Positions 1,423 to 58,395 of a stretch of 63,791 bases of DNA are shown here, piece by piece. The notes under the pieces were generated by a model. That model made no database searches. It saw only the letters and a program-made list of their open reading frames with translations, and was not told the origin of the DNA. The translations under genes and the position numbers were made by a program. Origin of the DNA: Robiginitomaculum sp. Its GTDB lineage: Bacteria; Pseudomonadota; Alphaproteobacteria; Caulobacterales; Maricaulaceae. The DNA lies in assembly GCA_027071965.1 (NCBI GenBank), contig JALSYJ010000049.1:1-63791 (forward strand), in the 5' to 3' direction. The first letter of the stretch is position 1. Every line of letters starts with the position of its first letter.

Positions 1423-2682
1423 ATGACTAATACTCCACAGTTCCCATGGCGGGTAGAAGAAAATACAAAAGAAGCTGAACTTCTAATTATTGAAGTTGCG
1501 GCGAGACTACAACTTAGCCCTACCCAGGTTCAGCAAGCTGAGCAGAATTACCACGCGCTTGCGGATTATATTGATGCGCCTAAGTCGCCCTTGGAGGATC
1601 ATATTGAGACTGTCCATGCGTCTGGATCATTCGCGATTGGCGCACCCATTATGGGCAAATCACAAGAAACTCAACATGATGTGGATGCGGTTCTGGAATT
1701 AATTGGCTTTAAGGACGCCGATTCAGAAAGTATCTTGAAATTAGTTGAAGAAGCACTGCTACGGCCAGATTCAAACGGCAAAAGCCGGTACGAAGGGATG
1801 ATTGAAAGAAATTCCCGATGCGTAACTGTTACTTACCACGATGGTCGAACAGTTGACTTGATGCCTGTTCACCACATCACTGATAAAAATAGTTATAAGA
1901 AAAAGCTGTTTCATTTTAAAGAAGCGAGGAGCTACAAGCCAGAAGAAAGTTACAGGAAGAATGTAGCGCCTAGAGGTTTTAAAAAATGGTACCTAGATCA
2001 AGAAAAGTGTCTTTCAGGCCCCCCTCTTGTTCTCCAAAAACATTTTATAGAAACTAGAGAAAGTGCTTTTGAAAAACGACATATATTGCTTGAAAAAGCT
2101 GAAACAGAGGAATTTCCAGAACAAAAGTCCTTGCCGGAAAAAACCGCTCGTACTTTGGCTATTCAACTTCTGAAAAGAAATAGGGACATCCAATACGAGC
2201 GTCTAAGTGGGCGCAAACCCCCATCAGTTTTGTTAGCCACATTAGGAATGCAGTCATCTGGCTCTATGCAACCTTTGCTTATAGATGAACTTATTAATGT
2301 GGCAAAACATATCAGAAACACACTAACAGCCAATGTTAGGGCAGGTTCTAAGTTACACGTAACAAACCCTTGGTGGCATCAAGACGTAATTTCTGATCGC
2401 TGGAATTCGACTGAAGATCAAAATCTATATCTCGACCAACTAACAGGCCTAATTAATGATATGGAGGCCTTAAAGGTCGAGCCAAGACTTTCTGAAAGGA
2501 AGAGAATATTAGTTCGAAACTTTGGGGAAAACGTCACAGTATCCGTTTTGAAATCACTTGAGGAACAAAGAAGTCAGCAAAGGAAACAAGGGGCGACACG
2601 AGTAACGAGCACCGGTTCAATTGTTGCAACCACCCCTTCACTGGTTCGTGCCGAAACTAAGAAAACGCCATTTGGTGGTTAA
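1423..2682 (+). CDS. CD-NTase / cGAS-DncV-like nucleotidyltransferase (CBASS cyclase), C-terminus ...TPFGG
   Basis: Pol-beta NTase signature HASGSFAIGAP...(17 aa)...DVDAVLEL (GS ... DxD) and a third acidic residue in CVTVTYHDGRTVDLMPV. An AGGAG lies ~15 nt upstream of the ATG. The gene is followed by a patatin effector gene, and the protein ends in Gly-Gly. Confidence 0.7.
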   Translation: MTNTPQFPWRVEENTKEAELLIIEVAARLQLSPTQVQQAEQNYHALADYIDAPKSPLEDHIETVHASGSFAIGAPIMGKSQETQHDVDAVLELIGFKDADSESILKLVEEALLRPDSNGKSRYEGMIERNSRCVTVTYHDGRTVDLMPVHHITDKNSYKKKLFHFKEARSYKPEESYRKNVAPRGFKKWYLDQEKCLSGPPLVLQKHFIETRESAFEKRHILLEKAETEEFPEQKSLPEKTARTLAIQLLKRNRDIQYERLSGRKPPSVLLATLGMQSSGSMQPLLIDELINVAKHIRNTLTANVRAGSKLHVTNPWWHQDVISDRWNSTEDQNLYLDQLTGLINDMEALKVEPRLSERKRILVRNFGENVTVSVLKSLEEQRSQQRKQGATRVTSTGSIVATTPSLVRAETKKTPFGG

Positions 2683-6722: not shown

Positions 6723-6795
6723 TAGACCGTGCTGCCCCGGTGTTGCCCAGAGCCAAATCAACAAATCGTCAATTCTACTAACCCATTGAAATATT

Positions 6796-6840
6796 TGGTG
6801 CACCCGACAGGATTCGAACCTGTGACCTCTGCCTTCGGAG
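6796..6840 (-). repeat. 45-nt copy of the 3' half of tRNA-Arg(CCG) (att repeat)
   Basis: tggtgcacccgacaggattcgaacctgtgacctctgccttcggag matches 58319-58363 of the intact tRNA at 45 of 45 positions. Identity stops at the anticodon loop. Confidence 0.9.
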
Positions 6841-10589: not shown

Positions 10590-11444
10590 ATGACAACCAG
10601 AGGAAATCCTTGGGATGACCCAAACTGGAAACCGCTCAAACGAGAAGCGACATTGATTCGTCAACTTCTTGGTTCCGGCGTGACTTCAATTGGCAAGGCT
10701 AGTTATGCCGATGGACTGGGAAACTATTATAATGCATTTTTTGGCTTGAGCATTGGGCTGGAACGGTTGGCGAAGTTGATTTGCGTATGCGATCACGCGA
10801 TTAGCCATAAGGGAAAATTCCCATCTCCAAAAATATTAAAAACACAATATGGACATGATATTCCAAAATTGTTTGATGCGATTGAAGCAATCACAGAAAA
10901 GCATAAATTAAAACTCAGTCATGGCCGCCCTGCTGGAATAATTGAAAGAGGAATTGTGTCCCGTTTATCTTCTTTCGCAAATGCTGCGGAGGGTCGATAC
11001 AATAATTTCGACATTCTGGATAATTCCAAAACAAGAATACAATTTGAGCCATTACAAAAATGGTGGGATGAAGTCGCTGAACCTATTTTATCAAAGCACT
11101 ATATTGGAAAACCAATTCAAATTCGAAAAGAAGCCAAGGCGAGAACCATTGTAGCGATGATGGGTGGAAATGCTTCAGTCCTATATTTTAATGAACGAGG
11201 TGATTTAATGAATACCTTATATGCGGCATCTCTACACACAGGACAAACCGAAATTGTGCAGAAATTTTCAAGATTTTATACACTTACTGTCATACGCTGG
11301 CTTGCCGATGTTTTCTATGAAATATCTAACAAGGCTTGTTACGAAAAAGAACTGGACAGCTTTTTTGGGCACTATGAATTTTTCAGTTGTTACAGAGTAG
11401 ATGACAGTTTTCTAAAAACCCGTAAGGTATGGCCATTGCCGTAA
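10590..11444 (+). CDS. Hypothetical 284-aa protein embedded in the type I R-M operon
   Basis: The ATG is 1 nt after the hsdS stop, and the stop is 4 nt before the hsdR start. I recognise no family. Motifs seen are GLSIGLERLAKLI and QYGHDIPKLF. Confidence 0.7.
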   Translation: MTTRGNPWDDPNWKPLKREATLIRQLLGSGVTSIGKASYADGLGNYYNAFFGLSIGLERLAKLICVCDHAISHKGKFPSPKILKTQYGHDIPKLFDAIEAITEKHKLKLSHGRPAGIIERGIVSRLSSFANAAEGRYNNFDILDNSKTRIQFEPLQKWWDEVAEPILSKHYIGKPIQIRKEAKARTIVAMMGGNASVLYFNERGDLMNTLYAASLHTGQTEIVQKFSRFYTLTVIRWLADVFYEISNKACYEKELDSFFGHYEFFSCYRVDDSFLKTRKVWPLP

Positions 11445-11448
11445 TAAA

Positions 11449-14400
11449 ATGAACACACACAAAGAAATCAAGTTTGAAGACGCCATTGAACACAGCCTGA
11501 GCAAAGAGGGTGGCGGTGGCTATGAGGTGGGTGACCCCAAGACTTTTGATGCTGAACGCGGGTTGTTCCCGTCTGAGGTGGTGGACTTCATAAAACGCAG
11601 CCAGCCCAAGCGCTGGCAGGCGCTGGTTGATTTTCATGGGGAACGGGCCGAGGCGACCTTGCTGGATGCTTTGGGCAAAGAGCTGGCGGCCAAGGGCAGT
11701 TTGCATGTGTTGCGCCATGGCTTCAAATGCTTTGGCAAGACATTCCGGCTGGCCTATTTTCTGCCCAATAGCGGTTTGAACCCGGATGCTTGGGCGGATT
11801 ATGAGAAAAACCGGCTGACGGTAACGCGCCAAGTTCATTTTGATCCCAAGGCCCCGGCTGAATCGCTGGATATGGTTTTGGCAGTCAATGGCTTGCCGGT
11901 GGTGACCATGGAGCTGAAAAACCAGTTTACCCACCAAACAGTGGAAGATTCAAAAAAACAATATCGCCATGATCGTGATCCGTGTTGCCCGATATTTATA
12001 TTCAAAGAACGAGCCTTGGTGCATTTTGCAGTGGATACCGATTTGGCTTTTATGACTACCAAACTGGCTGGGGCCAAGACATTTTTTCTGCCCTTCAACA
12101 AGGGGCAGGGTTTTGGCGGGGGCAATCCACCTTGCAAGGACAATTATCGCACCGCCTACCTTTGGGAAGAGGTGCTGACCAAAGATAGCCTAATGGATAT
12201 CCTTGCCCGGTTCATGCATTTGGAAATTGACGTAAAGCAGGTTCCGACCAAGCGCGGGATAAAAACCATCCCCAAGGAAACCATGATTTTCCCGCGCTAT
12301 CACCAATTGGACGCCGTGCGAAAACTGGTGACCGATGCACGAGCCAAGGGGCCAAGCCATAACTATTTGATCCAGCACTCGGCGGGTTCAGGCAAATCAA
12401 ACTCTATTGCGTGGCTGGCGCACCGGCTGGCCAGCTTGCATGATGAGCAAGACAATAAGGTATTCAGCACCATTGTGGTGATCACAGATCGCCGGGTGCT
12501 TGACCAGCAATTGCAGGACACCATCTATCAATTTGAGCACAAGGATGGGGTGGTTCAGAAAATTGATGAAAACACCCAGCAATTGGCCAAGGCGCTTTCC
12601 GGCGGCGTGCCGATTGTCATTACCACCATTCAAAAATTTCCATTCATTGCACAGGCATTGGATACGCTCGGCAAAAAGGGCGAAGGGGTTGATATAGATA
12701 CCAGCGGGCGCACCTTCGCGGTGATTGTTGATGAGGCGCATTCTTCGCAGAGCGGCGAAACCGCCATGGAATTGCGCAAAATTTTGAACCAAGAAGGCAT
12801 TGCCGCCACCATTGCCTCACAAATGATCGATGATGAGGAAGAAGCGCTTTCCGAAACGGCCCAAAAAGAGCTGTTCAAGGACATGCTGAAACGGCCAACC
12901 CAGCCCAATATCAGCTTTTTTGCTTTTACGGCCACGCCAAAATTCAAAACCTTGGCGGTGTTCAACGAGCCGGGGCCAAACAAGAAACCACCCTTTCATC
13001 ATTATTCCATGCGCCAAGCCATTGAAGAAGGCTTTATCATGGATGTGCTGCGCAATTACACCACCTACAAGGCCTATTACGGACTGGCCAAAGCGGTAGA
13101 GGATGACCCGGAAGTGCCGCGCAAAAAGGCGGCACGTCAGATGGCTCGGTTCATGAGCCTGCACCCGCACAATATTTCGCAAAAAGTTGAAGTGATTATT
13201 GAGCATTTTCGCCGCCACACCAGTCACAAGATCGGCGGGCGGGCCAAAGCCATGGTAGTCACCGGCTCGCGCTTGCACGCGGTGCGCTATAAACTGGCAT
13301 TTGATAAATACATCAAGGACAATGGCTATAAAGACATCAAGGCTTTGGTGGCATTTTCCGGCTCGGTCAAGGACCCGGATATACCGGGAACAGAATTTAC
13401 CGAAGTGGGAATGAATAACGGGATCAAGGAATCCCAACTGCCTGAAAAATTTAATAGTGAAGAATATCAGGTTTTGTTGGTGGCGGAAAAATATCAAACC
13501 GGGTTCGATCAACCCCTACTGCACACCATGTATGTGGATCGGCGCTTGTCGGGCATACAGGCCGTGCAAACGCTCTCGCGGCTCAACCGGCGTGCACCGG
13601 GCAAAGAGGATACATTTGTGCTCGATTTTGTGAATGAGCGCGACGAGATTTTTCAATCTTTCAAGGATTATTACGAGTTTACCGAGCTTGGCGATGCGCC
13701 GGATGCGCACCAACTTTACCAACTGCAACATGAAATTGAGGAATGGCGGGTTTTCACGAGTGAAGAGGTCAATGCAGTTTGTGAAATATGGTTCAAGAGC
13801 CGCAAAGAACCGACGCCCTCTGATCACCAGCTATTAAATGCCACGGTTGATTTGGCGGTTGAGCGTTTTGAGGCCTTGGAAAGTGAAGATCGAGAACTTT
13901 TCCGGGGCAAGGTGACCAGCTTTCGCAATCTCTACACTTTCCTTTCTCAAATTATTCCCTATCAGGATTCCGGTCAGGAAAAACTTTATACCTATTTGCG
14001 GCTGATGCTGCCCAAATTGCCCCGGCGAGCCGATGACAATCCGTATGAGCTTGGCGATGAAGTTGATCTTCAATTCTATCGACTGCAAAAAATTAGCGAA
14101 GGCTCCATTGATCTTGGCTCAGGCGAAGCCGATCCTTTGAAAGGGCCGACTGAAGTTGGTTCTAAAACGGCTACGGATGAAGAGGTTCAGCTAAGTTTGC
14201 TGGTGGACAAGCTGAATGAGCGGTTCGGGACAGATTTTGATAAAGCCGATGAGTTGTTTTTTGATCAGGTGGTGGAATCTGCGACCGGAAAGGACAAACT
14301 ATTGGAGGCCGCGAAAGCCAATACCTTTGAAAATTTCAATCTGGTCTTTGGTAAAATGCTCGAAGGGCTCTTCATTGAGCGAATGGAAGGCAATGAAGAA

Positions 14401-17145: not shown

Positions 17146-20100
17146 TTAGTAAGGAATTCTACTTTGCACTATTGCTTCCGTATCGTAATTTTTCGCCTCC
17201 GAGAGATACCGATCCGCCATCTGATTCAATACGCCTGAAACCACTGGATGGGTGCTCCGAAGTTTGGTCGCCCAATCCCGATATTGCTTTTCCAGAACAC
17301 GTTCTTGGTCTCCACCTTCGCCACGGCACACTACGCCCCTTTGATTATACTTTCCCACCCTAAATCCTTCAATCATTGAATCGGTAGCTAACTCTTCAAG
17401 TGCATCTCTAACTGGTTCGCAAGGCCATACACCATCTTCTCCTACGGGGGCCTTGGACAACAAGTGTCCGATTTCACTGTCGCCGGGTTTACTCCTTGCC
17501 AGTTCCCGACAGCTCTGGCGAACGTCCTTGATCCATTTGATTAGATATTTCGTCTGATCGTCACCTTTCTCATGACTCCCAGGAATTGTTTTAAGTCGAT
17601 TAAAAAAATGAAACATCAATGACGCATAATCCTGAGCGATTTTGTCATCAACATTGAGCCAATCAGGATCAACACCGTCATCTGAGCGCCTATAACTGTA
17701 AGCAACGGCCTCGACAAACTGTGCTGGATTATCAACAATCTCATTTTCAAGATTTGGTATGCCATAATCAGAATTTTCTAACACCCGCAAGTAGCGAAAC
17801 TCTAGCTGAGCCAAATCCTTTTTTGAAATATTGCTGTCTGCGTCTAGCAGCTTGAAAGCTTCACTAATGTGGTATTGTCTCATTTGGTTCACATCTTGGC
17901 TGTCCTCCTTACTCTTAGTTAAGGTGTCCAGTATTTGGAATATTTTTCGCGGCTGTATATGCTCCATCCTTGATCCGGCCAAGTTGAGTGCCGCTAGAGG
18001 ACGGCTATGATCCAACAAGTGGCGTACCGCTTGAGCTACATGATCTTCATGAGCCCAACCAGCTGTTACGTTTTCCCAGTACGCACTGTTTCTAGCAGGG
18101 GTAGATTCTGCTTTCGACCATGTGATCGGAGCAAATGGCGCAAGTCGTAAAAAACGATCAAATTGTTGAGCTGTCAGCTCTTTCTCTGCGAGGTTTAGCA
18201 TCTCCTCCAAGGTTGCCTCTGAAACTGAGCACATAACTCCAATAATCAGGTTATCGTGGTCTTCGTCAGAGAGTGAATTTTCTTCACCAATATCTTGGAT
18301 AAATGCAATTGATTTTGATGGACTACCTAATGCTTTAACCATCAATTGTCCGATCAAGGTCTTAGCACCGGCGATTTTTGTTAGATGAAAGATTCCCTTT
18401 TTGCCTAATTTTTGGAAAATCAGCTTTAGAGCTTCTACTCTCTGTTTTTCCACTAGTGCTTGTCGTGCATTGTAATCATCTTCCTCACTATCTGAATCAT
18501 ATATGGTTTCAAGGAGCCAGAAATCGCGAAATAGCCATTCGTGCTCCCAAACCAAATCATCAGGTTTTAGGCAGTTATAAACCGCCTTCACTTCTGCCGG
18601 GTCAAATGGGTAGTTATTATCACCCTTGGCTCGCAGAGTGGCCCGGCGTGAATATGCCGTTACGCGTACTTTTTCTCGTAGTATGGACTTTTCTTCGTTG
18701 GTGGCTTTTTCCGCCCAAGCTTTAATCTTATCCCAAATGCGAGCTTGGTACTCATTTGGTAAACCATCAGTTTGCTCAATTAGCGCGGATAAATGTTTCA
18801 GCCCGTACTTTTTCCAATTAAGGCAAGCCTCCAAACAATGAACAACAAATAATCTACGCTCTTCATAACTCACGGGCTCTCCATGCCCGTAGCCATAATC
18901 TCTCCACTTTGGTTTTTCACTATAATGTCCCATTCTGGACATGTTATTGAATTGCTCCACAGCTATTTCCCAAGCCACTTCTGGGAACTTTTTCGTAAGA
19001 TAATCAAAGGCTTTCTTTCTTTGTTCCAAGTCAGCAGATGTTTGCGGCATCCAAGCACGGAAAATAGCCATAAGCGAATTTATGGGTTTATTGGCTAAAT
19101 TGTCCTCTAGCTTTTTACCGCTCAGTGTCGCCAATACGTTTACCGTGCGTAGAAAATATTTTTCTGACCACGCCAACTTTTCGAGCGCCCAAAGCAAGCC
19201 AGTTCGAGCATGGTGCCCGCCAAAAATCCCCGTATCTTCCGGTTTAATGACCTGTAAGCAAGCTGATTTTTGACCGGATTTTAGATCGTCTTCCAGAATC
19301 GACAAAAAGGTATCGGGCGCTATTTCAGCATAATGAGGTAGGTCGGAGTTGTGGGCTTCCAGCACTCTGACGGTCAGTGGAAATATCAAGCTGCGAACAA
19401 GGTTATTTGCTTTGGCCTCAATATCTATCCCTGTTCGTTGCTGAAAGAGATTGTTCCCATGCACTGCCAAGAGCACAGCCATTTCAGCCAGCGCCTTACG
19501 TAGGCCGCCAGATATTTCGCGTGTTTTGCCATACATACTCGCTGCCCATTGATCTTCTTTAGGAAGGTCAAGGGATGGATCATCCTCCGAGAGTACCAAT
19601 TCACAACAGTCAAAAAAACGGTTTAGGTCTTGCGCTGTTATCGAAGAAGCAATGGCGTATAACGAATCAATTTTTGATATGACACCTCGATATTGTCCAA
19701 CAGACCAGACTGGCGCATCATCAAGCATCAAAAGTTGATTTAGAGACTGTTCGATCTCGGCATAATTGGTGGTGTCTGCAAGGCAGGCAACAATCGCTTG
19801 ATCAGAAGTGTTTTTGGCACTCCAAGTTCCCGCCAGCGCTATTTTGCCCAGAGACCGTGCAAGTGATGCATTAGTAGTCCATTCCGGGCGCTTTACCGCC
19901 TCAAGCTGCGATAACCGTCTGCGAAGGACCGTTAAGGAGCGGCCAGATTCCAAAGATAAACGATCTATATAATCCCGGTTGCACCCCATTTTCTCTAGTG
20001 CACTCCGAAACGCTTCGCACCCTAGCGGGTCAAGCGAAATGTCAGCATCTCGAGGGAAAGCATTCCTAGGGTATACGATGATGGATTTTAGGTGCTTGGA

Positions 20101-21207
20101 AAAATTGGCAAATGTGCGTTCTGCTTCCGCTCCATGGATTACGGGAATAATCCGAGAATTTTTTGTCAAAAGCGCTTTAAGCATGTCGCCACTGGAAAAA
20201 ACCAAGGCCCGTTCAGAATAACCTAGTATGTTATCATCATTGATGCTGTCCAATACGACCTTGATGAACGCCAATCCCTCAATCACAGAATCTGCTACGA
20301 TCACCAGTGGAGACTTCTCAGGCTTTTTGGCCCAATTTAGAATTATTGGATCAGCAGATATAATTGCTTGATCAAACAATTGAGGGCCAAGTTCAGGCTC
20401 ACTGTCCGCTGTCCATGTTTCCCACACTTCATCCAGACAAGACACCCCATTAGTAGGCCTGCCCGTTTCGTGAGAAAACCATTCTTGTGCTGCAATTGAC
20501 TGCTCAATCCACTGTTCAAAATCGGATGCATCGTAGGCCCGTACCTCCTTCCACTCACCTTCGGCATTCTTGTCCTTTACCCAATCTGTCTTACCTGCCC
20601 AACTTTGCGGCGTCACAAAAATAAATGTCGTATCTTTTCGCTCCTTTGAGTCAGTTCCATCTGTGCGATTTTTATAATCGCTGTTCGCTTTGCCACCCAC
20701 CTTTTTTGTACATCCAAACTCCCAGCCTGATTTTCCTTTTGGAACCCAAGATGAGGCTTCAGCGGAATCCAAAAAACCATCCCAGCCAGGCTTTTCCCCA
20801 GAATCGTTGCCAGGAAAATCTATGGTAATAATTTCTCTCGAAGTAGAATGTATGAGTGTGCGAAGAAGTACTGGAAGTCGGGTTCTGGCGTTTATCGCAT
20901 TTCCCCATGCCGATATCTCACGTCCAAGAACTTGCTGATGTATGGGTGAATATGGAGTAGGTGTCATAATGGATGACGTCCGAGCGGAGAGCGCGTCGTA
21001 TTCCGCCTGCATTTTAAGCAACTTTTCCGATGATGTCCCCCAAAGTGCTTCTATCTTCTCAGCCAGTTCAGGCGAGAGTGCGGCTTTTCCGTTTAACATT
21101 CGTGACAGCGCTGGACGGCCAATTTTCAACCTCTCTGCAGCTTCAGCATTGGTCATGCCTTCAGGAATAACTTTATTTTTAATGTAAGGGCCGGGGTGTT
21201 TGTTCAT
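17146..21207 (-). CDS. 1353-aa protein: N-terminal HigA/VapI-type XRE HTH fused to a large uncharacterised body
   Basis: The N-terminus HPGPYIKNKVIPEGMTNAEAAERLKIGRPALSRMLNGKAALSPELAEKIEALWGTSSEKLLKMQAEYD matches the HigA-family antitoxin HTH. It is followed by GWDGFLD...SGWEFGCTKK...FIFVTPQSW...ASDFEQWI (possibly nuclease-like) and ~1000 aa with no P-loop or other motif I recognise. Confidence 0.8.
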   Translation of the reverse strand: MNKHPGPYIKNKVIPEGMTNAEAAERLKIGRPALSRMLNGKAALSPELAEKIEALWGTSSEKLLKMQAEYDALSARTSSIMTPTPYSPIHQQVLGREISAWGNAINARTRLPVLLRTLIHSTSREIITIDFPGNDSGEKPGWDGFLDSAEASSWVPKGKSGWEFGCTKKVGGKANSDYKNRTDGTDSKERKDTTFIFVTPQSWAGKTDWVKDKNAEGEWKEVRAYDASDFEQWIEQSIAAQEWFSHETGRPTNGVSCLDEVWETWTADSEPELGPQLFDQAIISADPIILNWAKKPEKSPLVIVADSVIEGLAFIKVVLDSINDDNILGYSERALVFSSGDMLKALLTKNSRIIPVIHGAEAERTFANFSKHLKSIIVYPRNAFPRDADISLDPLGCEAFRSALEKMGCNRDYIDRLSLESGRSLTVLRRRLSQLEAVKRPEWTTNASLARSLGKIALAGTWSAKNTSDQAIVACLADTTNYAEIEQSLNQLLMLDDAPVWSVGQYRGVISKIDSLYAIASSITAQDLNRFFDCCELVLSEDDPSLDLPKEDQWAASMYGKTREISGGLRKALAEMAVLLAVHGNNLFQQRTGIDIEAKANNLVRSLIFPLTVRVLEAHNSDLPHYAEIAPDTFLSILEDDLKSGQKSACLQVIKPEDTGIFGGHHARTGLLWALEKLAWSEKYFLRTVNVLATLSGKKLEDNLANKPINSLMAIFRAWMPQTSADLEQRKKAFDYLTKKFPEVAWEIAVEQFNNMSRMGHYSEKPKWRDYGYGHGEPVSYEERRLFVVHCLEACLNWKKYGLKHLSALIEQTDGLPNEYQARIWDKIKAWAEKATNEEKSILREKVRVTAYSRRATLRAKGDNNYPFDPAEVKAVYNCLKPDDLVWEHEWLFRDFWLLETIYDSDSEEDDYNARQALVEKQRVEALKLIFQKLGKKGIFHLTKIAGAKTLIGQLMVKALGSPSKSIAFIQDIGEENSLSDEDHDNLIIGVMCSVSEATLEEMLNLAEKELTAQQFDRFLRLAPFAPITWSKAESTPARNSAYWENVTAGWAHEDHVAQAVRHLLDHSRPLAALNLAGSRMEHIQPRKIFQILDTLTKSKEDSQDVNQMRQYHISEAFKLLDADSNISKKDLAQLEFRYLRVLENSDYGIPNLENEIVDNPAQFVEAVAYSYRRSDDGVDPDWLNVDDKIAQDYASLMFHFFNRLKTIPGSHEKGDDQTKYLIKWIKDVRQSCRELARSKPGDSEIGHLLSKAPVGEDGVWPCEPVRDALEELATDSMIEGFRVGKYNQRGVVCRGEGGDQERVLEKQYRDWATKLRSTHPVVSGVLNQMADRYLSEAKNYDTEAIVQSRIPY

Positions 21208-28184: not shown

Positions 28185-30626
28185 ATGAAATGTTTTCTTT
28201 CCCATAGTAGTGCTGACAAAGGACGCTATGTGTCTATCGTTGCATCCAAACTTGGCCCGTACGCTGAATATGATGAGAAAACTTTTGAAGAGGGTATGGG
28301 TAACCTTGAAGAAATAATGAATGCAATGAACCGGTCACAAATTTTTGTCTTATTTATTTCGGATCATTCGTTGAACTCAAAATGGGTAAAAACGGAAATA
28401 ACTGAAGCAAAAAGGCTGTTAGTAAATGGCGATTTGAAGCGTTTTTTTCCGCTAATTATCGATAAATCCATTACGCATGAAGATAGTCGTTTACCTGAAT
28501 GGATAAGGCAAAATTATAATTTGAGGCCAATCACTCGACCGGTTGTGGCTGCCAAGAGAATTCGCGAAAGAATGATAGAAGCTTCGTGGAAGTCTCACCC
28601 CATGTTGAAAGAGCGGGATCAAATTTTTGTTGGGAGAAACGCGCAAATTGCAGGTTTCGAACAGAGAATAGACGATTTCAATAAAAGGCAACCTCTAGTC
28701 GTTTTTGCCTCGGGTCTTAGGGAGATTGGCAGAAAGGCCACTATGCGTTACTCATTGCGCAAATCAAATATTGTAAGAGACACTTACGACCCCGCTCGCA
28801 TAGACCTGACACAAGAAGACGGTATCGAAGGTTTTATTACAAAGCTCAATGATTTGGGGTTTTCTGAGGCAATAGACATTTCAAATATGATGGTCCGCAA
28901 ACAGCATGAGAAAGCTATTCTCTGCGCCCAATTATTATCTGATTTATTTGATGCAAAGGAGATAATAATTATTGAAGATCATTACTGTATCGTTCGGTTC
29001 GATAGGGATATTGCGCCTTGGTTTTTGCAGGTCATTGACAACCTTGAAAATGAATCTTTGGGACTCTGTATTGCTACTTCCTCAAAGGCTGCAAAATACA
29101 AATACGTACGGGATGACAGATTCTATTTTATGGAAATACCCGAGTTGGAAAGGACAGAAAGAGACGGGTTGTTTAAGCGTTATTCAGAGTATTTGAAACT
29201 TGAGTTATCTCTTGAAGATTTCAGGAATTTTTCCCCGCTCTTAAATGGGTTTCCTGAGCAGGTTACCTATGCCGCAAGCTTGATCGAAAGCCTTGGGAAA
29301 AAAGACGCGTTCGACAAGGCGGATGAGATAGTTTCATTTTCTACATACAAGGCTAGCATTTTTATCAAAAAATACGAAGAAAATGAAGAAATTATATCCT
29401 TCCTTCGATTTATTTCTTCCTTCGAGTTCATATCGCTAGATTTTATTACTTCTATTGAGAGAAAGTTGAGTAAATCACTCAATGAAATTCTTGATCGTTT
29501 ATTGGCTGACAGCGTTTGTGAACCAATTGGAAATGCTGGTCAGTATTTTAGAGTAAACGAAGTTATTAGAGATGCAATCGTTAGAGACAGGACTCGGCTA
29601 ACGGAGGAGTATAGAACTGCCCTGAGATCGTTTGTTGAAAAATTTTCACATGACTATGACGCCGAATACTATGATATTTCTGAATATCATATTGCGATAA
29701 AAGAAGCGCTCACTTCTGGCATAGAGCTTCCAGAGAGCATGCTTATACCTGCCCATTTTCTGAAAACTATGAAGGATTTGTACAATAAAGGAAGCTATCG
29801 CGAAGTTGTTGCGCTAGCAGATAGAGTGCTGCTTAAAGAGGCTTACTACGACAAGCATACATCGCAGGACATTAGGTACTATCTGTGTCAATCATTGGCG
29901 CGCATGCATAATGTTAGATTTACATCTGAGGTCCAGAAAATCAAAGGTCCAGAGCATGATTTTCTATTTGGATTTTATTATCGCTTAAAGGGAAGATATG
30001 ATGACGCGATAGAGCGATATAAGTCTGCAATGAAAGAACAGCGGACGGAGCAGAGGGCGCGACGAGAGTACGTATTTGTTTTGACAACAGTTGAAGCCTA
30101 TGAAGATGCACTATCTTTGGCAAGGGAGAATTACGAGCGGTACCCTTCAAATCCATTCTTAGTGCAAGCATATTTTAATTGCTTGCTTCATACGTCCATT
30201 GACCCGAATTGTGCTGAAAAGTTGCAGGACGTCTTGGATTCACTAAAAAATATACGAGGTGCGCGTGCCAATGAAATGCTTGATACTTTGACGGCTCGAT
30301 ATGAATTTCAGTTTGGGAATAAAGAACTTTCATTTCAGATGATAAACGCAGCGATAGAGATACATACTAACGTAGTGTATCCCATACTAACAAAACTGGA
30401 TATGGCAATACATGACATGCAGCATGATACAATATCGTCATGTGTAAGAAGGCTCGAAAGTGGACGTATTAGTGCAGGTCACAAAGTGGCCATTTTAAAG
30501 GCAAAGGTAATATTGACAGCCATTGAGGGCGACAAACCAAGGGCCTTGAGAATGATTGATAAAGACCTTGGTCATTTGAATGAGAAAGCAAGAGAGAAAC
30601 TTCAATTGCGTGTTCATGCTGCATGA
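28185..30626 (+). CDS. TIR domain - STAND-like NTPase (degenerate Walker A) - TPR protein (813 aa)
   Basis: N-terminal TIR: KCFLSHSSADK...IFVLFISDHSLNSKWVKTEITEA, with a candidate catalytic Glu. Next comes FVGRNAQIAGFEQRI...PLVVFASGLREIGRKAT, which is STAND-like, but GLREIGRK deviates from GxxxxGK[ST]. The C-terminal third has TPR-like repeats (YYRLKGRYDDAIERYKSAMK...). Confidence 0.75.
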   Translation: MKCFLSHSSADKGRYVSIVASKLGPYAEYDEKTFEEGMGNLEEIMNAMNRSQIFVLFISDHSLNSKWVKTEITEAKRLLVNGDLKRFFPLIIDKSITHEDSRLPEWIRQNYNLRPITRPVVAAKRIRERMIEASWKSHPMLKERDQIFVGRNAQIAGFEQRIDDFNKRQPLVVFASGLREIGRKATMRYSLRKSNIVRDTYDPARIDLTQEDGIEGFITKLNDLGFSEAIDISNMMVRKQHEKAILCAQLLSDLFDAKEIIIIEDHYCIVRFDRDIAPWFLQVIDNLENESLGLCIATSSKAAKYKYVRDDRFYFMEIPELERTERDGLFKRYSEYLKLELSLEDFRNFSPLLNGFPEQVTYAASLIESLGKKDAFDKADEIVSFSTYKASIFIKKYEENEEIISFLRFISSFEFISLDFITSIERKLSKSLNEILDRLLADSVCEPIGNAGQYFRVNEVIRDAIVRDRTRLTEEYRTALRSFVEKFSHDYDAEYYDISEYHIAIKEALTSGIELPESMLIPAHFLKTMKDLYNKGSYREVVALADRVLLKEAYYDKHTSQDIRYYLCQSLARMHNVRFTSEVQKIKGPEHDFLFGFYYRLKGRYDDAIERYKSAMKEQRTEQRARREYVFVLTTVEAYEDALSLARENYERYPSNPFLVQAYFNCLLHTSIDPNCAEKLQDVLDSLKNIRGARANEMLDTLTARYEFQFGNKELSFQMINAAIEIHTNVVYPILTKLDMAIHDMQHDTISSCVRRLESGRISAGHKVAILKAKVILTAIEGDKPRALRMIDKDLGHLNEKAREKLQLRVHAA

Positions 30627-30717
30627 CGGTAGCTGACAGTGTTGTTCCGCGTGCTGCCCCGGTGCTGCCCAGAGCAAATTTGGTAAAACGCAAAAGCCAC
30701 TAACCTATTGATTTTAT

Positions 30718-30762
30718 TGGCGCACCCGGCGAGATTCGAACTCACGACCTCTGCCTTCGGAG
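30718..30762 (-). repeat. Diverged copy of the tRNA-Arg(CCG) 3' half (att repeat)
   Basis: tggcgcacccggcgagattcgaactcacgacctctgccttcggag has the same architecture and breakpoint as 6796-6840. The last 17 nt (gacctctgccttcggag) and the T loop are identical to the intact tRNA. The acceptor and T stems carry compensatory-looking differences. Confidence 0.8.
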
Positions 30763-30900: not shown

Positions 30901-30922
30901 TTGGTACCCTCTAGGTACCCCG
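30901..30922 (+). repeat. Left copy of a perfect 22-bp direct repeat, ttggtaccctctaggtaccccg
   Basis: It is identical to 58233-58254, and the flanks on both sides are unrelated. It lies 76 nt upstream of the integrase start. Confidence 0.9.
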
Positions 30923-30998: not shown

Positions 30999-32249
30999 AT
31001 GCCTAAAAAATCGCAACAGAAGCTCACCAAGAAGGTTATGGACAACCTCTCTGTAATTCCCGGAAAGGACTACTCTGTTTGGGATAGTGAGCTTGCCGGA
31101 TTTGGCGTTCGGATCAAACCATCTGGCAAGAAGTCATTTCAAATCAAATACCGGACGGAAAGCGGTCGCCAGCGTAAAACAACTTTGGGAAGCTATGGGC
31201 GGCTCACCGTTGAGCAAGCAAAAAAGCTGGCGCGGATCGAGCTTGGGTTAGTTGCTGCCGGTGAAGATCCCGCAGCCGTTCGCATTCGAAAGAAGCAGGC
31301 ACAAAGCGTGGCTGAGCTTTGTGATAAATATTATTCTGATGCCGTTTCTGGCAAAATTCTTTATCGTGGAAAAACTAAGAGCCAATCGACGTTGGCTATA
31401 GATAAGGGGCGCATCAATAGACACATCAAACCTCTTTTGGGAGCCAGAAAATTTGCGGACCTAACACGCGCTGATATTGAGAACTTTATGTTCGCTGTTC
31501 GTGACGGCAAAACAGCCTTGCGAGAGAAAACGGGGCCGCGTGGTTTGGCTCGTGTAAAGGGTGGGATGGGGACAGCAAAAAAGGCAGTTTCTCTTTTGTC
31601 GTCCATTTACAGGTATGCAATCCGTGAAGGATTGATCGAGCACAACCCCTGCCAATATGTCGAATTGCCAGCCGACAATAAACGCACAAGATTTTTGAAT
31701 GAAGACGAATATGGGCACTTTGGGCAAGCTCTCCAAAATGTTCGACAAACCACCACCTATGATCTGGCTTGTCAGGCAATTTTGGTTCTGGCCCTAACCG
31801 GCTGTCGCAGGAGTGAAATTCTGAACCTAAAGCGTGAAGAAGTGGATTTCAAAGGCAGATGCTTGCGATTGCAAAGCACCAAAACCGGCCCACAAATCCG
31901 GCCCTGTGGAAAGGCTGCGCTCGACATATTGAGAAAATTATTGACGCACCATAAAAGCTATTTCGTGTTTCCATCCGGTCGAGGTGATGGCCCTATAACC
32001 AATATCAGATCGCCCATGGTGATGATTGTTCGTCAAGCTGAGTTGGAAGATGTGACGCCACATACATTGCGCCATAGCTATGCCACGGTGGCGCACGAGC
32101 TTGGGTATAGCGAGCTGACCATTGCTGGTTTACTTGGCCACAGTGCTGCCAGTGTCACCAGTCGTTACGCGCACCATGTGGATCATGTGCTCGCAGATGC
32201 GGCAGATAAGGTATCGGCGTTGATTTTGGGTCGCCTCAATTCAGAATAA
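30999..32249 (+). CDS. P4-like tyrosine integrase with a DUF4102 arm-binding N-terminus
   Basis: VWDSELAGFGVRIKPSGKKSFQIKYRTESGRQRKTTLGSYGRLTVEQAKKLA is DUF4102-like. The catalytic C-terminus is HTLRHSYATVAHELGYSELTIAGLLGHSAASVTSRYAH. Confidence 0.9.
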   Translation: MPKKSQQKLTKKVMDNLSVIPGKDYSVWDSELAGFGVRIKPSGKKSFQIKYRTESGRQRKTTLGSYGRLTVEQAKKLARIELGLVAAGEDPAAVRIRKKQAQSVAELCDKYYSDAVSGKILYRGKTKSQSTLAIDKGRINRHIKPLLGARKFADLTRADIENFMFAVRDGKTALREKTGPRGLARVKGGMGTAKKAVSLLSSIYRYAIREGLIEHNPCQYVELPADNKRTRFLNEDEYGHFGQALQNVRQTTTYDLACQAILVLALTGCRRSEILNLKREEVDFKGRCLRLQSTKTGPQIRPCGKAALDILRKLLTHHKSYFVFPSGRGDGPITNIRSPMVMIVRQAELEDVTPHTLRHSYATVAHELGYSELTIAGLLGHSAASVTSRYAHHVDHVLADAADKVSALILGRLNSE

Positions 32250-54561: not shown

Positions 54562-55554
54562 TTATGACATGATGCAATAATCAATTACCTCATCAAAACT
54601 CGCTTCTTCACGGATAAGACGGGCTTCTAAGTCGTCCAGATGCGCGATCGATGGTAATTTATTAGTAGCCAAAATATCAATTTTGTAGTTTGGACAGTAG
54701 TTTTTCCCAACCCTTGAAAGCTGTTTGCTCAACTGATTGAGGGTGTGATCCCGGAGTTCCAGTTGAAGCCTGCGAAACAGGATCCACCGGTGGCAATCGA
54801 AGAAATCTGACTTTTTCGATGAATCATACTTTCGAGCACTCCAGCCGATTTTTTTGGTGGCTTTGAATAACACTAAGTCATGGATAGTATGCCATTTTTT
54901 GAATTCAAAATAGTTCCGTGGATTGGGATTATCATGAGTTACTTGAGATTGAAATTTCAGCGCTACCGAGCTGTCGTATTTGTCTAGGGTAGCCAACACC
55001 TTGTTTAGAGACATAATATTTCCACGAATTGAGGCAGGCCATCTGAAGTAAAGTATCTTTTGAGCATCCAGAAACCGCAACTCACGACCTGTCGTAACGT
55101 CTTCGCGGTCCCAGTTCCTATCTACCCTGTTAGGAATATACTGGATTGTTTTCCCAGCGAACCTGAAAATGCTTTCGGAGCTGTACGATACTATCTTTGT
55201 TTCATCTTTTTCATTGTCATCGTGGAGATAATAAAAGGCTCTCCCAAAATACATAAATGACTGGGCGATTTCTTCAATTAGATGAACTAAATTTTCATCT
55301 ATCGACCCAAAGTCGTATCGGGTCTGGACGTTGTTTAGAAGTCGGTGTGTGAGTTTGTAATTGTTGGTTTTGATGTCAAAGAGTTTTCCAGAACGGGGGG
55401 TGCCATGGAGAAAGATATTCAGAAAATCCTCTCTGAACATATTTTGGTTGAGCCCGCCCTCACGGTCATATGTCCTGACCAAAAGCCTGTCGATCCAGTT
55501 CAATCGCGTTTCGTGGTAACGTGACCTCATCGGTTCTGATTTTACAAACCTCAT
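54562..55554 (-). CDS. Hypothetical 330-aa protein, downstream partner of the 824-aa membrane protein
   Basis: A 4-nt overlap with the upstream gene suggests translational coupling. It has no TM segments and no motif I recognise. Confidence 0.65.
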   Translation of the reverse strand: MRFVKSEPMRSRYHETRLNWIDRLLVRTYDREGGLNQNMFREDFLNIFLHGTPRSGKLFDIKTNNYKLTHRLLNNVQTRYDFGSIDENLVHLIEEIAQSFMYFGRAFYYLHDDNEKDETKIVSYSSESIFRFAGKTIQYIPNRVDRNWDREDVTTGRELRFLDAQKILYFRWPASIRGNIMSLNKVLATLDKYDSSVALKFQSQVTHDNPNPRNYFEFKKWHTIHDLVLFKATKKIGWSARKYDSSKKSDFFDCHRWILFRRLQLELRDHTLNQLSKQLSRVGKNYCPNYKIDILATNKLPSIAHLDDLEARLIREEASFDEVIDYCIMS

Positions 55555-58025
55555 TGCACTGGCTCTTCGTTTTCGGCTAACCGTTGAGCAAGACTGGTGA
55601 TGTGGTAATCCAGCTCAAAATCAACGGGCTCAATCTCCGGCAGAACCTTAATTGCAAAAAACAGGTGTGCTGCGTCTGAATAGCTCTTGAGGAATGCATT
55701 TACGATCTTGCTGTTATGCTCTTTACCCCGGGTGTAACTCATTTGATCACCATATCCGTCATCTCTGGCCCGGCGCTCAAAAGCCTGCTTCCAGCTGATA
55801 CGAATTAAATCCCTAGGAGGTGCGTACAAACTGAATCTCCTCCAGTCTGCAAAGCGTAACATTCTGATCAAATACTCTTTTTTATCTGGAGACTTATCGA
55901 GCCAAGTGAACACTGCATCAAGTGCGGTCTTAGTTAAGATTGGGTTGTCGTAGTACTCGCCATAGAGAATGGCGAACCCCATCACCGATGCCAAATCTTT
56001 CACAACTGATGAAATCAGAGAAATACGAAACTCATCCCGCACAGGCAGGTTAGGGTCTGGGAATTTGGTATCAGCGGCCAGTATGGCGAGCGCTACAAAT
56101 GTGCGCACAACCTTCTCCAACTTCTCTGGCAGGTTCTCATCCAGCGCATGGATGCACTCTTCGGCCAAAAGATAATAAATTTGCCCAAAATAATCTGGCA
56201 AATCCTCGTCATAATTATCTGAGAAAATATGATCTACGAGCCCCGCACTTCCAAGCATCTCAATGGCCTTATCTCGAGCGTCCACAAATCCACTTACCAT
56301 TCCGCTCGCATCAATGCGCGGTAGAACATATTGTTTTTCATTATAGTGCTGATAGGTCTCGTACCTACCCATGAGTTGTGACAGGTCGTCAAACCAGCGC
56401 GGCAATTTCCAGAACGAATGCAAACTGACCAGAACGACTTGCGTTGCAGCTTCGGGATTTTCATTTTTGAGAAGTGTACGTGAAAATTCAAGAACCTGTT
56501 GTTGATAAAAATTACAAATAACCGGTAAGATTTTTTCATACTTTTTAAGTAGTTCCTGAACGACGAGTTGCTGAAGGTATTTTGGTTGCGACAAACGTAG
56601 CCCCTCAACGTCTTGCTCGAATTTGATCCGATTAATTATAAAGGCAGTATCTACTTGCAAAAATGAAGGTAAGTCGCGCATGGATTTTGCAGTCCATTCG
56701 TCCTTTTCAAAAAAATCTGCGAGTTCTGTTTCAAGTGTGAAAATACGCCGCAGCGTTTCAAGACAAAAGTTGCTTCCTAACGTCGCCCAAGTATCTGAAA
56801 TGGCAATGAGCATTTTCTTTTGATCTTTGTCTGCTGCCGCGTTTTCCTGCGAAGCCGCCGTTTCAATCAGACATCGAATCCCGTTTAGCTCGTTCATCCC
56901 AACATCAAAATGAAAACCAAGCGCGTACTCTGAAATTCGTGTAGACAATCGCCCAAGTAGCGTTAGTGCGAGTTCATAGTTGCGTTCCTTAAATGCAAGT
57001 TCAATATGGCTTTCTAGACGTTTTGTAATGTCATTTTCAAACCAGTTCATATCTGGCTTTTCTTCAGGGTTCAGTTGTGTGCTTGTATTTAAAGCCATTG
57101 TTGTCGCGCTATCTCCGGCAAAAAACCATTGCCGATGCTTACGTCGGCGAGGAAACCAATAGCTGCTTTGATCGATCTCATGTTTCTTGTGCAGGTAGTG
57201 CAATAGAAGGCGTGAAAATTGCTCTGTAAGTGAAGGAAGGTTTTCCTCTAATGCTTTGGTGTCCTCCTTTATACTATCATCAATGTAAATAAGTTGACCT
57301 AACAGCCGCCTTGCCTCTTGTGAATGGTGGTTTGCAAGAGAATCTGAGTTTGTCGTGTTGGCCGCACCCTCAATGTGTTTTGCAATACTCGGAAGCAGTT
57401 CGCCTCCAACCAATGGTTTTAGATCAAAATAATTGAACAAACGCTGCCCCAATGGAAACAAGGTCAGCGACGTTACTAGCGTTAATAGCGTTCCAGTCAG
57501 GTATATTAGATAACCAGGCTCAAGCCCAAATAATGGCAACGAAGTCGCGGCCAGACAAAAAGATGCTGAGAAGACCAATATCCTAGAATATATGCTCCCC
57601 ACCTGTTCAGACGTTAGAAGCTGAATAATGTCTCGTCGCAGCTTGGTATAGCCCGCGCTCAAGATGATCCCGATTGTTGCAAAGTAGATTGAGAAAATCG
57701 CAGTTAAGATCTGAGCATACATCCTCAACTGGTCTATTAGATAGGATTTGTCAGCGTCACCAAGAGGCTTAAGTGTTCTGAGTTCATTAAGAGGAGAACT
57801 TTCAACATATGCAAGAAAGGATAGAAAAACAGCTACCCAAAAAAGGTTTTTAACTCCAAGGCCCAACAGGTTTGTTAGTATTACAGAATTTTCCCTAAAT
57901 TTTGCAAAGGCTTGTTTTTGCTTGTAGGTCTGAGCCTCAAGTTGAAATTTAATTTTACCGATACGGTTGCTGGACGACCAAAACCATCGCTTGGAAATCA
58001 TCCATATTGTTATTCGCTGGAACAA
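55551..58025 (-). CDS. Hypothetical 824-aa protein: four N-terminal transmembrane helices plus a ~630-aa soluble domain
   Basis: Hydrophobic helices LFWVAVFLSFLAYV, ILTAIFSIYFATIGIILSAGY, ILVFSASFCLAATSLPLFGL and YLIYLTGTLLTLVTSLTLF. The rest is helical with no P-loop or nuclease motif recognised. Confidence 0.7.
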   Translation of the reverse strand: MFQRITIWMISKRWFWSSSNRIGKIKFQLEAQTYKQKQAFAKFRENSVILTNLLGLGVKNLFWVAVFLSFLAYVESSPLNELRTLKPLGDADKSYLIDQLRMYAQILTAIFSIYFATIGIILSAGYTKLRRDIIQLLTSEQVGSIYSRILVFSASFCLAATSLPLFGLEPGYLIYLTGTLLTLVTSLTLFPLGQRLFNYFDLKPLVGGELLPSIAKHIEGAANTTNSDSLANHHSQEARRLLGQLIYIDDSIKEDTKALEENLPSLTEQFSRLLLHYLHKKHEIDQSSYWFPRRRKHRQWFFAGDSATTMALNTSTQLNPEEKPDMNWFENDITKRLESHIELAFKERNYELALTLLGRLSTRISEYALGFHFDVGMNELNGIRCLIETAASQENAAADKDQKKMLIAISDTWATLGSNFCLETLRRIFTLETELADFFEKDEWTAKSMRDLPSFLQVDTAFIINRIKFEQDVEGLRLSQPKYLQQLVVQELLKKYEKILPVICNFYQQQVLEFSRTLLKNENPEAATQVVLVSLHSFWKLPRWFDDLSQLMGRYETYQHYNEKQYVLPRIDASGMVSGFVDARDKAIEMLGSAGLVDHIFSDNYDEDLPDYFGQIYYLLAEECIHALDENLPEKLEKVVRTFVALAILAADTKFPDPNLPVRDEFRISLISSVVKDLASVMGFAILYGEYYDNPILTKTALDAVFTWLDKSPDKKEYLIRMLRFADWRRFSLYAPPRDLIRISWKQAFERRARDDGYGDQMSYTRGKEHNSKIVNAFLKSYSDAAHLFFAIKVLPEIEPVDFELDYHITSLAQRLAENEEPVQ

Positions 58026-58232
58026 TGAGCACCTACAGTAACTGCACTTTGCATTACATATAGAGGTTTCAAGTCGACTTTACGATATATTCCGCGGCAA
58101 TACTGGCTTATTTGTATTAGCAAAGGTTGAATTCACCCGGGCTGGTAGTACGAGAATTCCAGTTTCATAGACGTGAACAAGAATGCGTGCGTTATTTTAA
58201 ATTGTATTGGGTGTTACGCAGAAGGTCTTTCG

Positions 58233-58254
58233 TTGGTACCCTCTAGGTACCCCG
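58233..58254 (+). repeat. Right copy of the perfect 22-bp direct repeat, ttggtaccctctaggtaccccg
   Basis: It is identical to 30901-30922 and lies 64 nt from the 3' end of the intact tRNA-Arg. Confidence 0.9.
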
Positions 58255-58318
58255 CAAACATATTCAGAAAAATGTTTGCCGATGTTTAGGTGTAACGTAT
58301 TGAATTTATGGAAAGTTT

Positions 58319-58395
<77 letters not shown>

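What the first reader, a model, noticed from the sequence alone, without database searches (positions are those of the whole stretch)
54562..58025. Translationally coupled pair of unknown proteins (824 aa with four TM helices + 330 aa soluble) occupying the tRNA-proximal end of the island
The two genes overlap by 4 nt and are AT-rich. They occupy the last 3.5 kb before the att region and tRNA-Arg, a typical hotspot for defence cargo. The large protein has four N-terminal transmembrane helices and a ~630-aa cytoplasmic domain without motifs I recognise. The partner is likewise unassignable. A membrane protein plus a soluble partner recalls two-gene defence systems such as Kiwa. However, sizes and TM layout do not match any system I know.
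Basis: partly seen in the sequence, partly recalled or inferred. Interest (0 to 1): 0.6.

Follow-up and report, generated by a model that had tools for sequence, protein, structure and literature searches.

The report
Membrane protein with portal-fold partner
A mobile two-gene operon pairs an inner-membrane protein with a partner predicted to fold like the DNA portal of tailed phages; it sits where anti-phage genes sit, so it is probably an untested immune module.

Summary
Two minus-strand genes (55551-58025, 824 aa; 54562-55554, 330 aa) overlap by ATGA. They lie at the tRNA-Arg end of an integrated island. The large protein has four N-terminal membrane helices and a roughly 630-aa helical-repeat domain with no enzyme signature.

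The partner follows the large gene in 38 of 38 related loci. The two proteins diverge in step (r = 0.96), and one protein on record is a natural fusion of both. Distant versions keep the pair on Paenibacillus and Burkholderia plasmids.

Nothing else in the flanks is conserved. The nearest neighbours match 306 PADLOC defence models, against 7 for a random control. One distant copy sits inside a BREX operon. In E. coli the same island slot alternatively carries GAPS6, an experimentally validated defence system.

No paper or defence database that I searched describes the pair. The defence role and the mechanism are inferred, not shown. This scan found the same family before on other DNA, with the same fold call.

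The parts
55551..58025 (-). Gene for the 824-aa inner-membrane protein. It has an N-terminal amphipathic basic segment, four TM helices and a roughly 630-aa acidic all-alpha helical-repeat cytoplasmic domain.
   Evidence: ORF, translation. More than 300 homologues at 55-66% identity. AF2 model has pLDDT 77.5 and is all-helical. Fold hits are only helical repeats.
57450..57884 (-). Membrane domain (residues about 48-192, four TM helices). Inferred topology is N-in/C-in.
   Evidence: Hydropathy windows and K/R distribution: 10 K/R in residues 1-50.
57588..57728 (-). TM2 plus the following cytoplasmic loop (residues 100-146). This is the most conserved stretch of the large protein.
   Evidence: Identity to the query across 30 homologues is 91% (TM2) and 83% (loop), against 54-65% in the cytoplasmic domain. 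A run of invariant columns spans Q99-G143.
54562..55554 (-). Gene for the 330-aa basic (pI 9.2) soluble partner with a predicted phage-portal fold.
54751..54846 (-). Partner residues 237-268 (GW..R loop and the start of the long helix). These are the best-conserved residues across the whole partner superfamily.
   Evidence: R241 is invariant, and G237, W238, R256 and R268 are nearly invariant, in 55 diverse partners. The loop lies between helices 218-235 and 250-283 of the model. Assigning it to the portal 'tunnel loop' is inference from the order of elements.
55551..55554 (-). ATGA stop/start overlap between the two genes (translational coupling).
   Evidence: Sequence read directly.
58026..58318 (-). 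Non-coding leader between the tRNA and the operon (GC 39.9%). The promoter is presumed here but was not found by consensus. It contains a 22-nt motif at 58233-58254 that recurs exactly at 30901-30922, so the motif lies near both ends of the island.
58319..58395 (-). tRNA-Arg(CCG), the integration target of the island array.
   Evidence: ARAGORN. Repeats of its 3' part at 30707-30762 and 6785-6840.
30999..32249 (+). Tyrosine integrase with an arm-DNA-binding domain, at the tRNA-distal end of the island that carries the pair.
   Evidence: Pfam Phage_integrase 3.3e-21 and Arm-DNA-bind_3 3.6e-16.

Best explanation
The two genes form a self-contained, horizontally mobile module that most likely protects the cell against tailed phages, or possibly other invading DNA.

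Shown here:
- The genes are translationally coupled and always adjacent.
- They diverge in step.
- They occur fused into one polypeptide in at least one protein on record.
- The large protein is anchored in the inner membrane by four helices, of which TM2 and the following loop are nearly invariant. It carries an acidic helical-repeat scaffold.
- The small basic partner is predicted to adopt the wing-stem-clip-crown architecture of a phage portal.
- Neither protein shows a recognisable enzymatic domain.

Inferred:
- The partner is held at the membrane by the helical-repeat domain.
- It acts as a portal look-alike that is engaged late in infection by phage proteins that normally dock on a portal. 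Candidates are the large terminase with DNA, scaffold or capsid protein, and head-completion proteins.
- This engagement is passed to the conserved membrane domain, which then compromises the membrane (abortive infection), or it simply diverts packaging or assembly.

My odds are about 0.6 that the module is a defence or exclusion system. They are about 0.3 that the portal-mimic sensing step is right.
For: Coupling of the two genes:
- ATGA overlap.
- The partner lies directly downstream in 38 of 38 loci where the DNA is present.
- Pairwise identities of the two proteins over 37 loci correlate at r = 0.96, with 0 of 2000 Mantel permutations reaching that value.
- P0330 (1145 aa) is a natural fusion. 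Residues 1-789 match the large-protein profile (hhalign 99.9%) and residues 852-1139 match the partner profile.
- The same architecture is kept at 20-26% identity on a Paenibacillus plasmid, on a Burkholderia conjugative plasmid and in genome G099.

Portal fold:
- The nearest named ESM Atlas clusters carry PF04860 Phage_portal on 35% and 51% of their members, at score 0.92. At this score and about 97 shared features this is a weak lead only.

Defence context:
- Only the two genes are shared between loci.
- The 133 nearest neighbours match 306 PADLOC models. These include type I and type IIG restriction enzymes, ThsB, PtuA, SngC and Upx at E < 1e-100.
- 133 proteins from random positions in related genomes match 7 models.
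- In G099 the pair lies inside a BREX operon, in the order BrxC, PglX, PDC-M25A/B, the pair, PglZ, BrxL.
- In E. coli the pair fills the cargo slot of a tRNA-Arg island in 148 of 5426 genomes. In other strains the same slot holds GapS6a/b. GAPS6 lowered plating efficiency 100- to 10,000-fold (bioRxiv 10.1101/2023.03.28.534373).
- The window itself carries SMODS, GmrSD-Schlafen, type I R-M and TIR genes.

Mobility:
- Found in 1-2 of 400 sampled species of the phylum, and in none of the searched genomes of the window's own family or order.
- The tree mixes Alpha-, Beta- and Gammaproteobacteria with Thermodesulfobacteriota.

Functional membrane domain: TM2 and loop 2 are the best-conserved part of the large protein.
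Against: - No phenotype was measured, and the whole functional claim rests on guilt by association.
- The PADLOC comparison counts models, not proteins. One protein can match 20 or more models. The control comes from five genomes of one order, not from the loci's own genomes.
- The portal similarity rests on a predicted monomer with low TM-scores (0.3-0.45). There is no sequence-level support: no Pfam portal hit in 55 members and no PDB portal by profile.
- Ring formation and complex formation were not tested.
- Real portals are usually acidic, whereas this protein has pI 9.2. It may therefore do something other than imitate a portal surface.
- Many flanking genes are ordinary metabolic genes.
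- Later checks on earlier reports of this family in this scan rated the defence reading as doubtful.
- The large gene is split or IS-disrupted in some E. coli strains.
Confidence: 0.5

Rival explanations
1. Assembly or packaging interference without cell suicide. The portal-fold partner co-assembles with, or competes against, the phage's own portal, or it sequesters terminase. Capsids are then not filled. The membrane protein only tethers and regulates the partner.
For: The portal fold is specific. Neither protein has an effector-type enzymatic domain. The two are tightly coupled and occur fused. Phage satellites are known to interfere with capsid assembly (general knowledge, not tested here).
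Against: A passive tether would not need the near-invariant TM2 and loop 2. The clip-equivalent segment (residues 195-217) is very short and modelled at low confidence. A basic pI is unlike real portals.
Confidence: 0.2
2. A selfish mobile-element function rather than phage defence. Possibilities are entry exclusion, competition between islands, plasmids or satellites, or an addiction (toxin-antitoxin-like) pair in which the membrane protein is toxic and the partner restrains it.
For: The pair rides on islands, plasmids and prophage- or satellite-like contigs. In Burkholderia it lies next to VapBC and between IS elements. Disrupted copies in E. coli suggest a fitness cost.
Against: It shares its slot with a validated anti-phage system and is embedded in BREX. 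A portal fold has no obvious role in plasmid exclusion or addiction.
Confidence: 0.15
3. A genuine virion or transfer-machine portal: a remnant or working part of a prophage, gene transfer agent or satellite packaging module, or a membrane DNA conduit.
For: The fold resembles portals of HK97-type phages and of RcGTA. Three IMG/VR contigs contain the pair.
Against: No terminase, capsid or any third gene is conserved with the pair. The pair was found on only 3 of 2.9 million viral contigs, each time at a contig end beside a repressor or integrase rather than in a head module. There is no match in 50,697 phage records. No sequence matches portal families. The obligatory partner is a membrane protein.
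Confidence: 0.04
4. An ordinary accessory membrane function unrelated to conflict, such as a stress or transport scaffold. The defence-like neighbourhood would then reflect only that both travel in variable regions.
For: No catalytic or sensing domain was recognised. Some neighbours are metabolic genes. Some databases label homologues DUF2254 or 'YagU-like' membrane proteins.
Against: The pair is rare and patchy, in 1-2 of 400 species genomes. Neighbours match 306 PADLOC models against 7 for the control. It is embedded in BREX. It shares a slot with GAPS6. The portal fold is otherwise known only from viruses and virus-derived particles.
Confidence: 0.08

Closest known systems
Portal proteins of tailed phages and gene transfer agents (HK97-type, e.g. 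HFTV1 8qqn, lambda gpB 8k38, 80alpha 8v8b, RcGTA 6tba, SPP1 gp6 2jes)
   Different: No detectable sequence similarity. The protein is smaller, 330 aa against mostly 360-690 aa in the matched chains. The clip-equivalent segment is minimal. The protein is basic. It is not encoded next to terminase or capsid genes, and is always encoded after a membrane protein. Ring assembly is untested.
Kiwa (KwaA membrane protein plus KwaB)
   Same: A two-gene operon with a multi-pass membrane protein and a soluble partner, found in defence islands. The architecture resemblance is as recalled from the literature.
   Different: No PADLOC Kiwa model and no DUF4868 hit. The membrane protein here is 824 aa with a large cytoplasmic helical-repeat domain, and the partner has a portal fold.
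Lambda RexAB exclusion system
   Same: A membrane protein with four TM helices plus a cytoplasmic partner, carried by mobile DNA. One homologous pair lies about 1.4 kb from a CI-like repressor on a prophage-like contig. The proposed logic is the same, with a soluble sensor and a membrane effector (general knowledge of RexAB, not tested here).
   Different: No sequence match to any defence model. The sizes and folds differ. The pair is not co-transcribed with the repressor, to which it is convergent.
GAPS6 (GapS6a/GapS6b) and other cargo of the E. coli tRNA-Arg island
   Same: It occupies exactly the same slot, between the replication gene and the serine recombinase of the same island backbone. 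It is also a two-gene operon of similar total size.
   Different: The proteins are unrelated. GapS6b is described as carrying TPR and PIN RNase domains. The resemblance is positional only.

Membership tests
Kiwa (KwaA/KwaB) | Proteins match the KwaA and KwaB models; KwaB carries DUF4868 | tested here: not met
   PADLOC-DB v2 gave 0 families for both proteins at E<=1. Pfam gave no DUF4868.
Phage portal protein | Portal fold (wing, stem, clip, crown) | tested here: met
Phage portal protein | Sequence membership in a portal family (PF04860, PF05133, PF05136 and others) | tested here: not met
   No Pfam or PHROG hit for the protein. No portal family among 55 diverse relatives at E<=1. No PDB portal by profile search. 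The ESM Atlas gives only a 0.92 lead.
Phage portal protein | Encoded in a head-morphogenesis module next to terminase and capsid genes | tested here: not met
   No third conserved gene in 38 loci. No match in phage records. Found in only 3 viral contigs, at contig ends beside a repressor or integrase.
Phage portal protein | Assembles into a dodecameric ring with a central channel | not testable with these tools
DUF2254 (PF10011) membrane proteins | Match to the PF10011 model | tested here: not met
   PF10011 does not appear in the Pfam scan at E<=1. Some UniRef entries for homologues carry the name. An ESM Atlas cluster where 14% of members carry PF10011 scores only 0.80.
RexAB-type exclusion | Homology to RexA/RexB | tested here: inconclusive
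   Neither protein matched any PADLOC model. I could not confirm which Rex models that release holds.
Defence-island cargo (operational definition of candidate defence systems) | Neighbourhood enriched in known defence genes compared with random genes | tested here: met
   306 PADLOC models matched by the 133 nearest neighbours, against 7 matched by 133 control proteins. The pair is embedded in BREX. It shares a slot with GAPS6. This is a crude count of models, not proteins.
Defence system (functional definition) | Lowers phage infection when expressed | not testable with these tools
   This needs a bench experiment. The papers searched contain no report of one.

The most novel reading that the evidence does not exclude
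A bacterial immune module built around a host-encoded copy of a viral structural fold. A minimal, basic portal look-alike is tethered to the inner membrane by a helical-repeat protein. It acts as bait for the phage packaging or head-assembly machinery, and on engagement it triggers the conserved four-helix membrane domain to abort the infection. This would be defence by structural mimicry of a virion part, a principle not described for any catalogued system.
Probability: 0.25. Interest if true: 0.85.

Novelty: new variant of a known kind. Interest (0 to 1): 0.62.

Why it matters
If the pair protects against phages, it would add a widespread family with an unusual ingredient. The partner alone has 716 clusters at 50% identity, and the pair spans Proteobacteria, Thermodesulfobacteriota and Bacillota.

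That ingredient is a cellular protein with the fold of the phage portal, which is otherwise known only from viruses and virus-derived particles. It would give a tractable case for two questions: whether bacteria use imitations of virion parts as bait, and how a signal from the cytoplasm reaches a membrane effector.

The E. coli version sits in a small island whose cargo slot also carries a validated system. The experiment is therefore simple to set up in a laboratory strain.

Tried and rejected
- Family scans (Pfam, PADLOC, NCBIfam, PHROGs) of both proteins found nothing meaningful.
- Profile searches of PDB sequences with A1, A2 and A4 found no significant hit. 'Dandelion' 9wwz at E 0.069 was not followed further, and no paper linked it to phage defence.
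- An ESM Atlas search with the cytoplasmic domain gave no named family above 0.87.
- The megablast of the locus against E. coli genomes found no match. The E. coli copies were reached through the Cedecea locus instead.
Contexts came from the search for related loci, the genome search and the annotated collections.
- Literature searches found no description of this pair. The terms tried were portal-like + defense system, portal fold + anti-phage, portal protein + decoy, DUF2254, the E. coli protein accessions, and DefensePredictor text and supplements.
- No RNA holder was listed for the stretch. The only full holder is a hydrothermal-vent metagenome run that may be the source.
- A consensus promoter and terminator scan found nothing convincing for the operon.
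- I rejected tRNA adjacency as a family property, since it holds in only 7 of 38 loci.
- I rejected a conserved third gene, since clustering of 722 flank ORFs found none.
Full report
**1. Observation**

The window is one whole 63.8-kb contig of a 77%-complete metagenome-assembled genome. The only run holding the whole stretch is a hydrothermal-vent metagenome.

Two minus-strand ORFs lie at 55551-58025 (824 aa, TTG start) and 54562-55554 (330 aa). They overlap by ATGA. The TTG start agrees with the conserved N-terminus of homologues.

The hydropathy scan gives four TM windows in residues about 48-190 of the large protein and none in the partner. The distribution of K/R suggests an N-in/C-in topology, which would put the 630-aa C-terminal domain in the cytoplasm.

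The pair is modestly AT-rich, at 43.1% GC against 49.1% in the core flank.

tRNA-Arg(CCG) lies at 58319-58395. Its 3' part is repeated at 30707-30762 and 6785-6840. The contig therefore holds a tandem array of islands at this tRNA. The pair is the tRNA-proximal cargo of the 30.8-58.3 kb island, whose integrase is at 30999-32249.

The rest of the contig is dense in conflict genes: SMODS, a GmrSD-Schlafen fusion, type I R-M and a TIR protein.

**2. What the proteins are**

Neither protein matches Pfam, PADLOC, NCBIfam or PHROGs, nor PDB sequences by profile.

*Large protein.* The AF2 model (pLDDT 77.5) is entirely helical. It matches only helical-repeat proteins at unspecific scores. I read it as a membrane-anchored helical-repeat scaffold with no recognisable enzyme domain. 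Its best-conserved part is not the cytoplasmic domain but TM2 and the loop after it, at 91% and 83% identity against 54-65%. This argues that the membrane domain does more than anchor.

*Partner.* The AF2 model is good (pLDDT 80.4, pTM 0.79).
- Foldseek against the PDB gives 45 hits at E <= 1e-3, and every listed row is a phage portal protein.
- The viral predicted-structure library gives 115 hits at E <= 1e-3, and the named rows listed are portal or phage-related proteins.
- A language-model search puts PF04860-bearing clusters as the nearest named neighbours, at score 0.92. This is a lead only.

No sequence-level link to portals exists, even with a profile of 55 diverse relatives.

From the order of elements in the model, the most conserved residues of the superfamily are G237, W238, R241, R256 and R268. 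They fall in the loop and helix start that would correspond to the portal tunnel loop and long wing helix. This assignment is inference.

The partner is basic (pI 9.2) and the large protein's cytoplasmic domain is acidic (pI 5.3).

**3. The two genes are one unit**

- Forty related loci were fetched from species-representative genomes. The partner gene lies directly downstream in all 38 where the DNA is present.
- Clustering all 722 flanking ORFs shows that nothing else is shared.
- Pairwise identities of the two proteins across 37 loci correlate at r = 0.96, with 0 of 2000 Mantel permutations as high.
- A profile search of 1.84 billion representatives finds 716 partner relatives at E <= 1e-3, and the full-length ones listed are mostly 270-345 aa. 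One is a 1145-aa protein whose residues 852-1139 match the partner. Its N-terminal 789 residues match the large protein (hhalign 99.9%). This is a natural fusion.
- At 20-26% identity the same two-gene layout recurs on a Paenibacillus lautus plasmid, on a Burkholderia glumae conjugative plasmid and in genome G099.

**4. Distribution**

The pair is rare and patchy. Among 400 sampled species genomes of the phylum, one has the close large protein and two have a partner. None of the searched genomes of the window's own family or order has either.

The protein tree interleaves Alpha-, Beta- and Gammaproteobacteria with Thermodesulfobacteriota. In E. coli it is present in 148 of 5426 complete genomes, always single-copy and chromosomal.

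**5. Context**

- The 133 nearest neighbour proteins (two on each side where available) match 306 PADLOC models at E <= 1e-5. Many matches are very strong, including type I and type IIG restriction enzymes, ThsB, PtuA, SngC and Upx.
- An equal-sized control from random positions in five complete genomes of the same order matches 7 models. The count is of models rather than proteins and the control is small, so it shows direction, not magnitude.
- The neighbours also include integrases, helicases and ordinary metabolic genes.
- In G099 a distant pair sits inside a type 1 BREX operon, between PglX and PglZ and next to the candidate system PDC-M25.
- In E. coli the pair fills the slot between a replication gene and a serine recombinase in a roughly 10-kb island at a tRNA-Arg gene.
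- That backbone is found in 221 genomes. In other strains the same slot holds GapS6a/b, a ParA-family gene, or a GTPase-domain gene plus a hypothetical.
- GAPS6 was shown experimentally to lower plating of several phages by two to four orders of magnitude (bioRxiv 10.1101/2023.03.28.534373).
- The pair is almost absent from viral collections. There is no hit in 50,697 phage records. Three hits among 2.9 million IMG/VR contigs all lie at contig ends, beside a CI-like repressor or an integrase rather than in a head module.

**6. Reading**

The shown facts are:
- an obligate, co-inherited, sometimes fused pair;
- a conserved membrane domain;
- a helical scaffold;
- a portal-fold partner;
- no enzyme domain;
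- mobile, defence-rich surroundings.

The most economical explanation is a two-component anti-phage or anti-invader module. In it, the portal look-alike is the part that meets the phage and the membrane protein is the anchor and probable effector.

I put about 0.6 on defence or exclusion, and about 0.25-0.3 on the specific portal-bait-plus-membrane-abortion mechanism. The rivals are interference without suicide, selfish element functions, a true virion portal, and an unrelated membrane role. They are listed with their tests.

Nothing here is a functional measurement. Later checks on earlier reports of this family in this scan rated the defence reading as doubtful. I keep the confidence moderate for that reason.

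**7. Comparison and novelty**

The pair is not Kiwa: there is no KwaA/KwaB model and no DUF4868. By sequence and context it is not a member of any portal family.

It resembles RexAB and Kiwa only in layout, with a membrane protein plus a soluble partner. No paper in the library searched describes a cellular portal-fold protein in defence or names this pair.

I class it as a new variant of a known kind, namely a two-gene defence-island cassette with a membrane component. If the mimicry idea holds, it would be a new principle.

This scan reported the same family before on other DNA, including the E. coli tRNA-Arg island, with the same fold call. I reached the fold independently before reading those notes. 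The additions here are:
- the natural fusion;
- the BREX-embedded copy;
- the GAPS6 slot-sharing;
- the control for neighbourhood enrichment;
- the co-divergence statistic;
- the distant plasmid-borne pairs.

Noticed in passing
window 6785-6840, 30707-30762, 58308-58363: There are three copies of the 3' part of tRNA-Arg(CCG). One is the gene itself. The other two are a copy at 95% identity over 56 nt that includes an exact 23-mer, and a copy at 79% identity. They mark a tandem array of at least two islands, about 23.9 kb and 27.6 kb, integrated at the same tRNA.
   Followed up: partly
window 30901-30922 and 58233-58254: An exact 22-nt direct repeat, TTGGTACCCTCTAGGTACCCCG, contains two GGTACC half-sites. 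It lies near both ends of the tRNA-proximal island and may be a recombinase-binding site.
   Followed up: no
window 1423-2682, 4611-6722, 28185-30626, 17146-21207: Other conflict-type genes on the contig are a SMODS-domain protein, a GmrSD_N plus Schlafen/AlbA_2 fusion, an 813-aa protein with an N-terminal TIR domain, and a 1353-aa protein whose only hit is an HTH domain.
   Followed up: no
L045 (G099:C1:1709000-1727000) 10722-12616: The candidate system PDC-M25A/B lies inside the same BREX operon, directly next to the distant pair. Two cassettes are therefore embedded between PglX and PglZ.
   Followed up: partly
L061 7200-8264; L063 4782-6059 (E. coli tRNA-Arg island slot): Two alternative cargos of the same island slot are unclassified here. 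One is a ParA-family protein. The other is a GTPase-domain protein followed by a 152-aa hypothetical. Both could be further candidate defence genes.
   Followed up: no
L060 8996-11462; hit H4 (NZ_OZ501684.1): The large gene is annotated as split into two ORFs in E. coli F5446. The pair is interrupted by IS1 in another strain. This points to occasional inactivation.
   Followed up: no
L022 4105-4181 and 13763-13836: In a Roseibium genome the pair lies between two tRNA-Arg(CCG) genes about 9.6 kb apart. This is the same tRNA species as in this window.
   Followed up: no
L056 1094-7433: A compact element beside the pair carries a small terminase subunit, a replication initiator, a CI-like repressor and an integrase. 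It looks like a phage satellite or a small prophage.
   Followed up: no
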